64,000 bases of DNA from Spizellomyces punctatus DAOM BR117 (Eukaryota). The DNA lies in assembly GCA_000182565.2 (NCBI GenBank), contig KQ257454.1. One strand, written 5' to 3'. The position numbers were made by a program, and so were the translations under genes. This document shows, one piece after another, positions 37,915 to 42,370 of this stretch (position 1 is the stretch's first letter; every line of letters starts with the position of its first letter). The notes under the pieces were generated by a model. It searched no databases. It worked only from the letters and a program-made list of their open reading frames with translations, and was not told the DNA's origin.

Positions 37915-40629
37915 TCAATGTATCTGTCCCTTGATATCCACTCCCTTTCGCGATATAGCATCGAAAAGTCCTTGCAATACAGGCAAACTGCCTTTAGTGT
38001 CCACTGTACGCCCAACTTCCCCATTGACCCACTGAACACCCTGCTCCTTCAGCCACTTGGTACACGCTTTACGCCCTAGGCGAATCGCATCCACGTCGTT
38101 CTCTGACACATCGTCCGCATGAACGAATCCCAGTTCAGTCGCGATGTAGTCCAATGATATTCCAGGACGGTAGGCACGACATATTATTTTTAGTGCACGA
38201 ATACGTTCCCTCTCGGCGAAATGATCCATAAGGTACGCCGATAGCCGGGGTGCTGCACCATACATCAAAAAGAATCGGTGATAGTCACCTATTGCAACGG
38301 CTGTTCGGACATTAAGGGCATGTTTGACAATTTCACCATTCTTCTGCTCGTCGGTCAGTTCCCCAAGAACCTTAACAAGTTCTTTAATTTTTAAGCAGTG
38401 TGAGATAAATCTCCAGACGTACGACGAATGGCGGAAGGAAATTAGTCCGCACCTGTTCTGTTGGACGTATGCACCAAGTATAAAATACGATAACCAGTAA
38501 ACTCGTCTTGGCACCCGCGCAAGTTGAATATGTTATACAGCTGCATGAGCTGAGCCTGACATTGGTTGTACTCCCCAAGATCGCCCTAGAGGATAGGGAT
38601 GGTGTCATAATTAGCCTCAAGCCTTGCGACAAAGGCCAGACTCAGAAAGCAAACCTTTTCAAGCGCTATTCGGGCATGCGTCTCATAAACAGCTACAGTA
38701 AACTCATTCTTAATTCGCTGGACCGTCAAATCCTGCCGTAGACTCTTAAACTGATCGCAAATAAAGGTGTAATTTTGCTCCTTTTTCCACTTTGAGATCA
38801 GCAGGTCCAATGTTTGCCGAAGGATGTGTAGCGGCCGTACAGATGCGGGATCCGGTGCCGAAGTGAGGCGAAGGTAGCGCTTCTCGAGATCCGTGCAAGT
38901 CCCCACAATTGTATACTCATCCCAATCAATCACATCGGGATTCCCTTCAGCACCAGCACGCAAAAATGCTTCCTTTGCTCGCTGTATTTCCCGTTGCTTT
39001 TCCAAATTCTTCCGCCGCTCCTCCTCTTCCCGAGCTTTAAAGCGCTCTTTTCGCTGCTGTCGTCTCTCAAGCTCCGCTTTGCGCAGCGACGGAGGAAGGC
39101 GGGCAAGCATCACATCTTCGTCGTCAGAAGATACATTGGATGAAGTAGAAACGGTTACGGTTGCCATTTTGGTGGACTGTCGTGATTCTGCTGGTGATTG
39201 TGGGATTTCCTTCCGCTTTTTTGATATGGAAGGGGACGCTGGGGGGGAAGGTGTGCTCACAATATTGATACGCTGCTTCGCTTTCGGCTCTGGCTGTTGA
39301 CAATAGCTACAGACGTAGTTTTAGATCTGCCATTGCATGCATTCGAGGCAAGAAGGACTTTCCTACCTCGGCAACGCCATGTTTGTCCAGTCTGTGGTCC
39401 ATATGACGTTATTTTGCATGGTCTGCACAATTAGATCCTTTATCTGCTTCTCAGCAATATCTCTCTTGTCCGCTGGACATGTGTCGAACACCTTGGTCAC
39501 ATACTCCCTGAAATCAAGAGAGCGACTGTAAATACCCATCGCCACGCTGAATACCAGTTAACCCAGGATGCATACTTTAAACTAGGAGGCCATTTATTTG
39601 GATCCTGAGACTCCTGCTTCGAGGACGATGCACGGGGTTTGCTGCTTGGCTCATCATCCTTTGACTGAGATACCAGAGGTGATTCTGCGAGGACTTTACG
39701 AGGTTTCACCGTGATATATGCAGGTTCTGCATTGAAAAGAAGAAATTAGGTAAACACAGCATCATACATCATCAGACAGATCTATTCTTACTTGCAGCGC
39801 CAAAAGCAGATGGTTTCGCGGCTGTGGTCGATGATCCTTTTACCACGTCGGCGTAGGCCATCTTTTGCGTCACAGCCGGTTGGGTAGAAGTAAAGGGTGC
39901 GGATGTGGAGGACGTGCTGGAGATCATATTTTGAGGAGGGTGTGCGGCTAGCGTTGAGCTTCTGACAACACAAGTCAGATGAAACCGAGTCAATAAAGCC
40001 GGTAGAGAAGATAACTTTAAAAGCAGTGTACTTACACTGTCGGCGCCGCCGCATACACTGTCGGGTGCTGTATACTGGAATGTTGTTGTTGCTGTTGTTG
40101 TTGCTGCTGCGGATTCTGCGCATACCACGCTGACCAATCGTAGCCGTGACTACCGTAGGCTGTTACCGAGGGTGTAGCATAGGCGTATTGGGGTGTATGT
40201 GTGTACGGTTGTTGATAGAATGGCGCTGCAGTTGAATATGATGGGGTTGAAGTGGAGACTCCTGGAGGAATCTCGACGGCTGTTTGCGATTGTTGGTAGT
40301 ATTGTTGATTGTAATACTGTGCGTAGGCGGAAGCGTCTATGGCGTATCCAGCTGGCCTGAAATGACGAAGAAATGTGCAATTAGCTTAAAGCTCCAGGTC
40401 ATAACCGTGTGAAGCATATATACATGTTTAGCTGAGCACAACATTGAGAGCATTAACCGGCAACAAAGCTCATGCCAGATCTCGCAAAGTCTCCTACAAC
40501 AATGACGTACCAAGTCGTTTGACCATAAGCTACTGCCGTTCCAGGAGCCGCCTGTTGCTGCTGTTGGCCCAAAGGCGTTGTCTGAGCAGCGTAGGCGGAC
40601 CCGTAATACTGGGACGGGTCGGAAGCCAG
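37915..40629 (-). CDS. THP3: SAC3/GANP-family PCI protein THP3/LENG8-like with Q/Y-rich N-terminus; putative CUG start
   Basis: [88 protein letters not shown], ends GVDIKGQIH*. Start position uncertain (see findings). Confidence 0.9.
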
Positions 40630-41219
40630 GATTGGATTGAACGAAGCAGGAAAAGTAATGCCAAGACACGATCCGGCAAACGTCCTGGTAACCCGAGTAC
40701 GTGCGTTAAATATATACCGTTCCGTGGAGCACTTCTGATATGTCTCGAGAAGATGTACGAAGGTGGTCAAGGTGTTTGGAGCACCCGCGACAAAACCTCG
40801 GCCATTCAGGCGTGTGTAGTGGGAGTAGGTGTTGGATCGGCCCGCCTTGCCATGGCAACAAGGAGGGAGGGCCACTTGAAGAGCATCCAAGAAGCAAGAT
40901 ACTCAGAGTATAAGATACAGCTTTACATAACTCATAACTCATAAATCATAAATCATATGGTGGAGATGATGCTGGCATCCGGCAATCCTTGATAGTGGAT
41001 TTCCTGTAACCGTACATATGCGCAACAGAGAGTGTTTAAAACCAATCCAAACAATGGATCCAGACTGTCCCTGGCCAAAAGCGTTCAAAGTACCGTTTAT
41101 GCTGTGCATCAATGTTATGTAGCGCCGGCATCCCTGTAGACTCTCAGAATGATGCATTTTGCTCATATACTGATGTGCGAGAAAGCATAAGATTCCATTA
41201 TAAACAAACCGCTTTAAAG

Positions 41220-42370
41220 CTATCCAATGTCTGCATGCTCTGGTGTCAGATCAGCTTGGAGGATAGTTGTCCGGTCAGTCCAACACAATGAGGAAGCCCA
41301 ATAGTCTCCGCAGGTTCCTGGAAAATCTGCACATTCTGTAAAACTGCTGGAGAGAGGGACCCGCCGATTGGAGCTCCGATTGTAGGAGAGATTCTCGGCG
41401 TGGATATACGCAGCTAGGGATGTCCGGTTCACGAAAATGTTTTATCAACGGTCTACATTTGACAAGCCCGTACATGCCTTTTCAGGAGCCCACGAGCATC
41501 GTCTCTCAACTCCAGCTGGTGAAAGTGGTGTACCTTCCGGTGTGAACATGTCGAGAATCGTTCCTACAGCTGGTGGAGTGTTGGCGGTAGGCTCGAGCGG
41601 CCATCCAGACCAGTCCACCCATTGCTGGTCAGGACTGAATGGCGGCGATATTTCAGTGGGTGTTGGCGCGGGTGTCTGAATATGCAACCAGCAGTAAGAA
41701 CCTTTCGACAAGCGTTTACAATCACCTAATATGTCATTACCGGAAAAAGATTAGACGCTACGTCGCAATCTCCTCCGCAATCACATGGAGTGGGAATATC
41801 GAGTGGCGGGGTGGGAACGTCAGCCGAGATGCAAACGTACTCGTCACAAAATGGCCTGCCTAGGAAACCTGCTCCCAGTTCAGCATCAAGGTGATATTCC
41901 TTGGATTCAGCCATTGTCCCGAAACCCGGGGATGCAAATATTGAAGCAGGCAGAGAATGCCGACGTTGATTTTGCGATATTGATGGAAGGATCGCTGTAC
42001 TGTTCTCGATCAGGCTGATTTCATCATCCAGTTCATTCTCTACAATATCACACTCTTGGAACTCGTCCAACGCTTCCTTTACTTCTTCGCTAAGATCGGA
42101 TTCATCGTCATCGTTCTCTTGGCTCAAAAACCAGTTCTTGACCATCAAGCCCGCTCCCAGCAAGCGGCGATTCACGGCTCGGAGCTCCCGAACAGTGTCC
42201 TCAAGATCACGGAGATGTTGTGACCGTTTGCGACGGAATGCTGCTTGTGCAAGTCTGTTGCGGTCTCGTCGTTCTTCTTCCGTGTAGAGACGGTGACGAC
42301 CACCCTTACGGCGTAGCTGATTAGCTTCGATTTTTACTTGGCCGGGCATCCTTGTTGGCTGGCTGTGCAT
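41220..42370 (-). CDS. bZIP transcription factor (Yap/AP-1-like basic region), 3 exons
   Basis: RRDRNRLAQAAFRRKRSQHLRDLEDTVRELRAVNRRL. Downstream exons join in frame to a stop at 41220. Confidence 0.85.

What the first reader, a model, noticed from the sequence alone, without database searches (positions are those of the whole stretch)
40590..40860. THP3/LENG8 homolog appears to start at CUG, downstream of two back-to-back uORFs
Seen: the clearly coding Q/Y-rich N-terminus ([51 protein letters not shown].., roughly 140-150 aa over spliced exons) has no in-frame ATG until ~39927. It opens at CTG 40629-40627 in the context ccaatcCTGgct. This is the same aatc-NNN-gct context as the RSM27 ATG in this window, and it would read (M)ASDPSQ. 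Upstream are two short same-frame ORFs joined TGA-ATG: 40853-40806 (MARRADPTPTPTTHA*) and 40805-40767 (MAEVLSRVLQTP*). I found only weak donors (gttttg, gtgctc) that could splice an ATG in. Inference: near-cognate initiation with uORF control of an mRNA-processing factor.
Basis: partly seen in the sequence, partly recalled or inferred. Interest (0 to 1): 0.7.

Follow-up and report, generated by a model that had tools for sequence, protein, structure and literature searches.

The report
Fungal LENG8/THP3 likely starts at CUG
The gene for a nuclear mRNA quality-control factor in a soil chytrid fungus has no AUG where its protein should begin. Relatives in a second fungal phylum carry CUG, GUG or AUG at the same spot, so translation probably starts at a non-AUG codon; the small upstream ORFs are real sequence but not shown to regulate it.

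Summary
This single-copy LENG8/THP3 gene (deposited as SPPG_09089) has no in-frame ATG for 158 codons, and its Q/Y/A-rich coding sequence opens at atcCTGg (40629). A sister-species model has Leu there. In 4 Mortierellaceae-like orthologue loci, the matching codon heading an exon 1 that ends in the same phase-2 Trp intron is CTG, GTG, CTG (all A-3/G+4, no in-frame ATG before the upstream stop) or ATG in a weak context. Best reading (0.66): the protein starts at a near-cognate codon, a state shared across two phyla that probably keeps output low. Main rival (0.2): the deposited model splices uORF2's ATG in through a weak 50-nt intron. Only 16 RNA reads were laid, so this is untested, and the leader just upstream is unexpectedly conserved. 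The uORFs exist but carry indels in the sister genome, and their arrangement is not seen in the other loci. Many orthologues use ATG. Eight literature searches found no report, and the scan had not noted this gene before (it noted CUG starts in idi-4 and viral ODC). New member of a known kind; interest 0.58.

The parts
40627..40629 (-). Proposed CUG start codon, A at -3 and G at +4
   Evidence: Leu in P0121; CTG/GTG/CTG/ATG at the matching codon of L004/L005/L006/L003
40511..40629 (-). Coding exon 1 (39 codons + 2 nt), ends in a phase-2 intron inside a Trp codon
   Evidence: the same TG|GT junction at codon 33-35 in 4 of 4 orthologue loci; Q+Y+A 51% against 15% upstream
40357..40510 (-). Intron 1 (154 nt, GTACGT...CAG)
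   Evidence: junction present in P0001 and P0121
40036..40356 (-). Exon 2, Q/Y-rich prion-like region
   Evidence: RNA read depth in the bin fits a piece ending at 40036
37915..39961 (-). Exons 3-8 (39961-39792, 39726-39576, 39507-39367, 39306-38655, 38585-38453, 38381-37915), SAC3/GANP PCI core; first in-frame ATG at 39927
40806..40853 (-). uORF1, 15 codons, context gccATGg (26 codons if read from ATG 40886)
   Evidence: 1-nt deletions at 40820 and 40824 in run X10
40767..40805 (-). uORF2, 12 codons, context tgaATGg; its ATG is the start of the deposited model
   Evidence: 1-nt deletion at 40795 in run X10
40735..40784 (-). Candidate 50-nt leader intron of the deposited model (GTGCTC...CAG); an alternative donor at 40796 gives 62 nt in the same frame
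   Evidence: not confirmed by reads
40630..40684 (-). Leader segment just upstream of the CUG, in frame, unchanged at amino-acid level in the sister species; holds ACG 40683 and ATT 40659
40524..40526 (-). Out-of-frame ATG in exon 1 (cttATGg) opening an 11-codon ORF across intron 1; would catch ribosomes that scan past the CUG
   Evidence: role inferred

Best explanation
The gene is the single LENG8/THP3 orthologue, and its full-length 717-aa protein, including the Q/Y-rich N-terminal region, starts at CUG 40629. Shown: gene identity, exon structure, absence of an in-frame AUG, strong context, and a near-cognate codon at the matching position in orthologues. Inferred: scanning ribosomes initiate at the CUG at low efficiency, helped by A-3/G+4. 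Those that pass it meet an out-of-frame AUG 103 nt later and three more, so little protein, or a short form from 39927 without the Q/Y region, results. The weak start keeps this mRNA-surveillance factor scarce and sensitive to start-codon stringency. If uORF1 and uORF2 are in the mRNA they lower output further by forcing leaky scanning or reinitiation 137 nt before the CUG, but they look lineage-specific.
For: (1) DNA of 4 of 4 metagenome loci found by an exon-1 motif, each matching fetched SAC3/GANP-family proteins: aatCTGgc (L004), aaaGTGgc (L005), aacCTGgc (L006), tccATGgc (L003). The three non-AUG loci have 64, 21 and 17 open codons upstream and no ATG among them. Under a permissive rule L006 has 0 splice routes for an ATG in the 341 nt held and L005 has 2, both needing a 296-nt intron. 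(2) All four share the window's phase-2 Trp intron. (3) A CTG/GTG/TTG/ACG codon with A-3 and G+4 occurs at 0.44% of window positions, yet sits where composition changes (Q+Y+A 15% to 51%). It is the only one of the 17 in-frame near-cognate codons in 40902-40511 with both A-3 and G+4. (4) P0121 has Leu, no Met in exon 1, and 39 of 40 exon-1 residues identical. (5) Of 58 Mortierellaceae-like proteins, 11 have Leu and 2 Val at the site behind discordant leaders, and 8 lack exon 1 (P0100 corrected by eye). (6) 7 of 7 internal donors of this gene have G at +5 and introns of 60-154 nt; the deposited leader intron is 50 nt with GTGCTC. (7) The 43-aa deposited N-terminus matches only P0001 and P0121 among 403 fetched proteins; the next hits have E 8.8 and 9.9.
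Against: No read, ribosome or peptide evidence: 16 RNA reads laid, no joint called. The deposited annotation used RNA-seq among its inputs (PMC4991717). The 20 residues up to and including the Leu are identical in P0121; with 40 non-synonymous sites the chance is 0.015 at intron-like 10% divergence and 0.13 at 5%. All four leader deletions of X10 miss 40734-40630, and the one at 40795 would give the alternative donor a +5 G. The neighbouring bZIP intron has a donor without +5 G (GTAATG). L004 has 198 and the window 56 permissive splice routes. Exon-1 homology between phyla is positional, not alignable. No DNA of a second chytrid start was read: Leu in P0121 could be any Leu codon. Geranomyces P0004 (two accessions) has Met eight residues before its Leu-Ala-Ser. 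Many orthologues start at Met. Fused models also occur in Batrachochytrium, where an ATG is present, so fusion is not diagnostic.
Confidence: 0.66

Rival explanations
1. Ordinary AUG start. uORF2's ATG (40805) lies in a short first exon that is spliced (50-nt intron as deposited, or 62-nt from donor 40796) onto 40734, giving a 755-759 aa protein in which the CTG is an internal Leu.
For: It is the deposited model (P0001), from an annotation that used RNA-seq among its inputs (PMC4991717, whole text). There is amino-acid identity upstream of the Leu in P0121. X10's leader deletions fall in the would-be intron or 5' of the ATG if the 62-nt form is used.
Against: The donors lack +5 G, unlike 7 of 7 internal donors; the intron is shorter than all seven; the only branch-like motif is 36 nt from the acceptor. 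The deletion at 40795 shifts the deposited 7-codon exon in X10 unless one of 3 unlocated inserted bases compensates. The sister-species model does not use this exon. The extension is found in no other orthologue. It leaves the strong-context CTG and the orthologues' CTG/GTG as coincidence.
Confidence: 0.2
2. The main start is the first in-frame AUG at 39927 (aatATGa), giving a 559-aa protein without the Q/Y-rich region; exons 1-2 would be mostly untranslated or lie 5' of the usual transcript start.
For: Good -3 context. Several deposited chytrid models begin downstream in this way (P0002, P0005, P0010, P0016).
Against: Exons 1-2 keep the frame and sequence in P0121, with one in-frame Gln loss. 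Four out-of-frame ATGs precede 39927. Human LENG8 has a functional N-terminal Q/Y-rich domain (PMC13554387, passages) and U1-binding N-terminal regions (PMC12363940, passages).
Confidence: 0.07
3. Initiation is near-cognate but further upstream (ACG 40683 or ATT 40659), which would explain the conserved in-frame leader; the CUG is then a second site.
For: The frame is open 91 codons upstream. ACG 40683 has A-3 and ATT 40659 has G-3. The segment is conserved. Multiple near-cognate starts are described for cpc-1 (PMC5487733, passages).
Against: Neither codon has G+4. The residues gained are unlike the orthologues' N-termini. Orthologues have only 17-21 open codons upstream in 3 of 4 loci.
Confidence: 0.06
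4. Assembly error: the true base makes ATG at 40629.
For: None found.
Against: X1's contig shows 0 other letters over 39512-41300 (depth 2.8, and the tool notes it may be near the assembly's source). P0121 has Leu.
Confidence: 0.01

Closest known systems
Human LENG8 / yeast Thp3 (LENG8-PCID2-DSS1, Thp3-Csn12-Sem1; TREX-2.1)
   Same: SAC3/GANP PCI core (best solved matches LENG8 E 4e-74 and THP3 E 6e-47, against GANP E 2e-6); long disordered N-terminus with a Q/Y-rich region (PMC13554387, PMC12363940, passages)
   Different: No non-AUG start or uORF is mentioned in the passages searched; the control suggested for human LENG8 is through nuclear retention of its own mRNA (PMC13391367, passage)
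Main ORFs that start only at a near-cognate codon: EIF4G2/DAP5 (GUG), TEAD1 (AUU) (PMC5666671, passages); Podospora IDI-4 (CUG, proposed; PMC5487733, passage)
   Same: No usable in-frame AUG, and a near-cognate codon in strong context at the N-terminus
   Different: Different protein family and lineage; here the state is patchy, with ATG in many orthologues; not yet tested experimentally
Fungal cpc-1/GCN4 leaders with two uORFs and conserved near-cognate codons (PMC5487733, passages)
   Same: Two uORFs plus near-cognate starts; position conserved while codon identity varies by branch, as reported for Agaricomycetes cpc-1
   Different: There the near-cognate codons add extensions to an AUG-started ORF and the uORFs are conserved; here the codon replaces the main AUG, lies downstream of the uORFs, and the uORFs are not shown to be conserved

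Membership tests
LENG8/THP3 subfamily of SAC3/GANP | SAC3/GANP PCI domain | tested here: met
   PF03399 above cut-off in two exons
LENG8/THP3 subfamily of SAC3/GANP | Closer to LENG8/Thp3 than to GANP/Sac3 | tested here: met
   LENG8 4e-74, THP3 6e-47, GANP 2e-6
LENG8/THP3 subfamily of SAC3/GANP | Binds PCID2/Csn12 and Sem1 and acts in nuclear RNA surveillance | not tested
   taken from papers on human and yeast proteins only
Main ORFs initiated at a near-cognate codon | No in-frame AUG before conserved coding sequence in the genome | tested here: met
Main ORFs initiated at a near-cognate codon | No AUG brought in by splicing in the mature mRNA | tested here: inconclusive
   16 reads, no joints; the deposited model assumes one
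Main ORFs initiated at a near-cognate codon | Near-cognate codon in strong context kept in orthologues | tested here: met
   3 of 4 orthologue loci; ATG in the fourth; positional homology only
Main ORFs initiated at a near-cognate codon | Initiation at that codon shown by profiling, proteomics or mutation | not testable with these tools
   no such data available
GCN4/cpc-1-type uORF reinitiation control | uORFs conserved in position and length across relatives | tested here: inconclusive
   deletions inside both uORFs in X10, with 3 unlocated inserted bases; upstream ATGs in L004-L006 differ in number, frame and length, none in the 246 nt held for L003
GCN4/cpc-1-type uORF reinitiation control | uORFs lie in the transcript leader | tested here: inconclusive
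   3 short read pieces over 40795, possibly chance matches; no start site called

The most novel reading that the evidence does not exclude
LENG8/THP3 in early-diverging fungi is held behind a deliberately weak start (CUG, GUG, or AUG in poor context) kept or re-evolved across Chytridiomycota and Mortierellaceae. In this chytrid a weak leader intron adds a switch: when retained, uORF2 ends and only the CUG makes protein; when spliced, uORF2's AUG opens the main frame. Since LENG8/THP3 acts on intron-retaining RNA, this would be a feedback loop joining splicing surveillance to start-codon choice and to the amount of the form bearing the prion-like region.
Probability: 0.12. Interest if true: 0.82.

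Novelty: new member of a known kind. Interest (0 to 1): 0.58.

Why it matters
Main ORFs that depend on a non-AUG codon are few, and my searches found none described for this gene or for chytrids and Mortierellaceae. If true, it gives a cross-phylum natural series (CUG, GUG, weak AUG) at one position of a conserved mRNA-surveillance factor now under active study. It would explain why many deposited models of this gene have discordant or missing N-termini and lose the Q/Y-rich region that drives condensate functions in human LENG8. It also offers a simple reporter for start-codon stringency in early-diverging fungi.

Tried and rejected
No RNA holder was listed by the run search. 4 of 24 listed runs were laid: X21 gave 16 short reads, too few for joints or ends, and a 19-nt piece inside intron 3 shows that some are chance matches; X9 laid nothing; X10's substitution table was cut at 40018, so its letters at 40629 were not seen. 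A chytrid exon-1 pattern found 0 matches in metagenome contigs. The alignment scan found 0 relatives in viral contigs (22 candidates) and 1 of 130 candidates in genome contigs, an ascomycete-like gene with an ATG start. The representative-protein search added no chytrid N-terminus that aligns to exon 1 (judged from the matched ranges). Folding of four leader/exon-1 stretches gave z from -1.44 to +0.83, so no special structure. The back-to-back uORF arrangement was rejected as significant in itself (2.4% background). Gene-model fusion was rejected as a sign of a missing ATG. The core tree (36 proteins chosen by hand, FastTree) puts Met-start Mortierellaceae in two well-supported groups among Leu, Val and exon-1-less lineages, but backbone support is too weak for an order of events. 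One literature search timed out.

Full report
Observation. uORF1 (40853-40806) is followed at once by uORF2 (40805-40767), and 137 nt later comes CTG 40629 in ccaatcCTGgct. Seven GT-AG introns join it into a 717-codon frame whose first Met is residue 159 (ATG 39927). The frame is open for 91 codons upstream with no ATG. Composition changes at the CTG (Q+Y+A 15% before, 51% in exon 1), and it is the only one of 17 in-frame near-cognate codons in 40902-40511 with both A-3 and G+4. Run X1's contig agrees letter for letter.

Gene identity. Two exons hit Pfam SAC3/GANP. Solved structures rank LENG8 (4e-74) and THP3 (6e-47) far above GANP (2e-6). All 7 matches in the own genome are exons of this locus. 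The deposited protein P0001 (SPPG_09089, 759 aa) is identical from the Leu onward. It starts at uORF2's ATG and reaches the frame through a 50-nt intron, 40784-40735. This is the main rival, and its annotation used RNA-seq among its inputs (PMC4991717, whole text read).

Sister species. P0121 (S. 'palustris') is a model that fuses the upstream bZIP gene to THP3. It has Leu at the CTG position, no Met in exon 1, and 39 of 40 exon-1 residues identical. Run X10 is a related genome; two of its shown changes that I checked give P0121's amino-acid differences. It has 1-nt deletions at 40752, 40795, 40820 and 40824 and, by length arithmetic, 3 inserted bases that the output did not place. So both uORFs and the deposited 7-codon first exon are probably shifted there. 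Against my reading: all four deletions miss 40734-40630; the one at 40795 would turn the alternative donor into GTTTGT, which has +5 G; and the 20 residues up to the Leu are unchanged in P0121 (chance 0.015-0.13 depending on the divergence assumed). A 62-nt leader intron is therefore compatible with both species.

Wider comparison. Of the 281 proteins fetched by then, 58 carry the Mortierellaceae exon-2 motif. Of these, 25 begin with Met at the matching site and 6 have internal Met there (2 after a long upstream frame; 4 in Podila models that may be splice artefacts, inferred). Another 11 have Leu and 2 Val behind leaders that disagree between strains, 8 lack exon 1, and 6 have it with the start motif absent or cut (P0100 moved by eye from 'missing' to Leu). 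Strains are redundant, so these are not independent counts. An exon-1 pattern found 4 metagenome loci, all matching these proteins. Their start codons are tccATGgc (L003), aatCTGgc (L004), aaaGTGgc (L005) and aacCTGgc (L006). The three non-AUG loci have an upstream in-frame stop with no ATG between. L006 has no splice route for an ATG in the 341 nt held, L005 has two long ones, and L004 has 198 under my permissive rule, none with a branch motif in the rows shown (the output was cut). All four end exon 1 in the same phase-2 Trp intron as the window. Codon identity thus switches among CTG, GTG and ATG while the non-AUG forms keep A-3/G+4, the usual signature of near-cognate initiation. Among the other Spizellomycetales models, P0002 is truncated, P0012 and P0124 lack exon 1, P0003 and P0026 are partial, and two Geranomyces models share Leu-Ala-Ser but differ upstream; one of them (P0004) has Met eight residues earlier, which may be a true AUG. 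Chytridiales, Batrachochytrium, Umbelopsis and Lichtheimia models start with Met. Two ATG cases have a pyrimidine at -3 (L003; Tyr-Met in fused Batrachochytrium models), a hint, on few cases, that the start is weak either way. The tree does not fix the order of events.

Splice rival weighed. The gene's 7 internal donors all have G at +5 and introns of 60-154 nt. The deposited leader intron is 50 nt, with donor GTGCTC and a branch-like motif only 36 nt from the acceptor. The neighbouring bZIP intron does lack +5 G, so weak donors are used in this genome. The deposited 43-aa N-terminus matches nothing beyond P0001 and P0121 among 403 proteins. RNA run X21 gave 16 reads; depth fits pieces ending at exon borders 40036 and 39792, but no joint or 5' end was called.

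Mechanism. I commit to CUG initiation of the full-length protein (0.66). The sequence features are shown; use by ribosomes is inferred. Ribosomes passing the CUG meet an out-of-frame AUG at 40526 and three more before 39927, so output should be low, possibly with a short form lacking the Q/Y region. In human LENG8 that region is a prion-like domain needed for stress-granule targeting (PMC13554387, passages). N-terminal segments bind U1 snRNP and PAXT (PMC12363940, passages), and LENG8 mRNA is suggested to be autoregulated (PMC13391367, passage). The uORFs may lower output further, but they are not shown to be in the mRNA or conserved.

Known systems and novelty. It works like EIF4G2/DAP5, TEAD1 (PMC5666671, passages) and IDI-4 (PMC5487733, passages). 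It does not meet a tested cpc-1/GCN4 uORF criterion. PMC13322074 was seen as listing and passages for the Thp3-LENG8 equivalence. Searches (listings only, apart from the papers named) showed no report of a non-AUG start for LENG8/THP3 or for these fungi. The library lacks most subscription papers and I read no supplements, where genome-wide lists could hold it. Verdict: new member of a known kind, interest 0.58.

Noticed in passing
window 41445-42349 (-): bZIP gene (deposited SPPG_09090, P0122) directly upstream on the same strand, one intron with donor GTAATG; fused to THP3 in the sister-species model P0121.
   Followed up: partly
window 40925-40960 (-): Short tandem TTATGA-like repeats giving several ATGs; in run X10, 129 nt at 40866-40996 are replaced by 134 unrelated letters, which marks the upstream edge of the conserved leader block.
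   Followed up: no
window 40685-40758 (-): Possible 74-nt 5' UTR intron (GTACAT...TTAAC...CAG); splicing would put uORF2's frame in line with THP3, with its TGA between them.
   Followed up: partly
L002:4743-6494: Ascomycete-like THP3 gene on a 65-kb contig filed in a Deltaproteobacteria MAG, so probably a contaminant.
   Followed up: partly
P0262, P0266: Batrachochytrium models also fuse THP3 to an unrelated upstream gene although an ATG is present; that ATG follows a Tyr codon, so -3 is T.
   Followed up: partly
L006, 233-201 nt upstream of the matched motif: Cluster of five upstream ATGs in a TGCA repeat, one opening an ORF that overlaps the CTG; L004 has two in one frame, L005 one.
   Followed up: no
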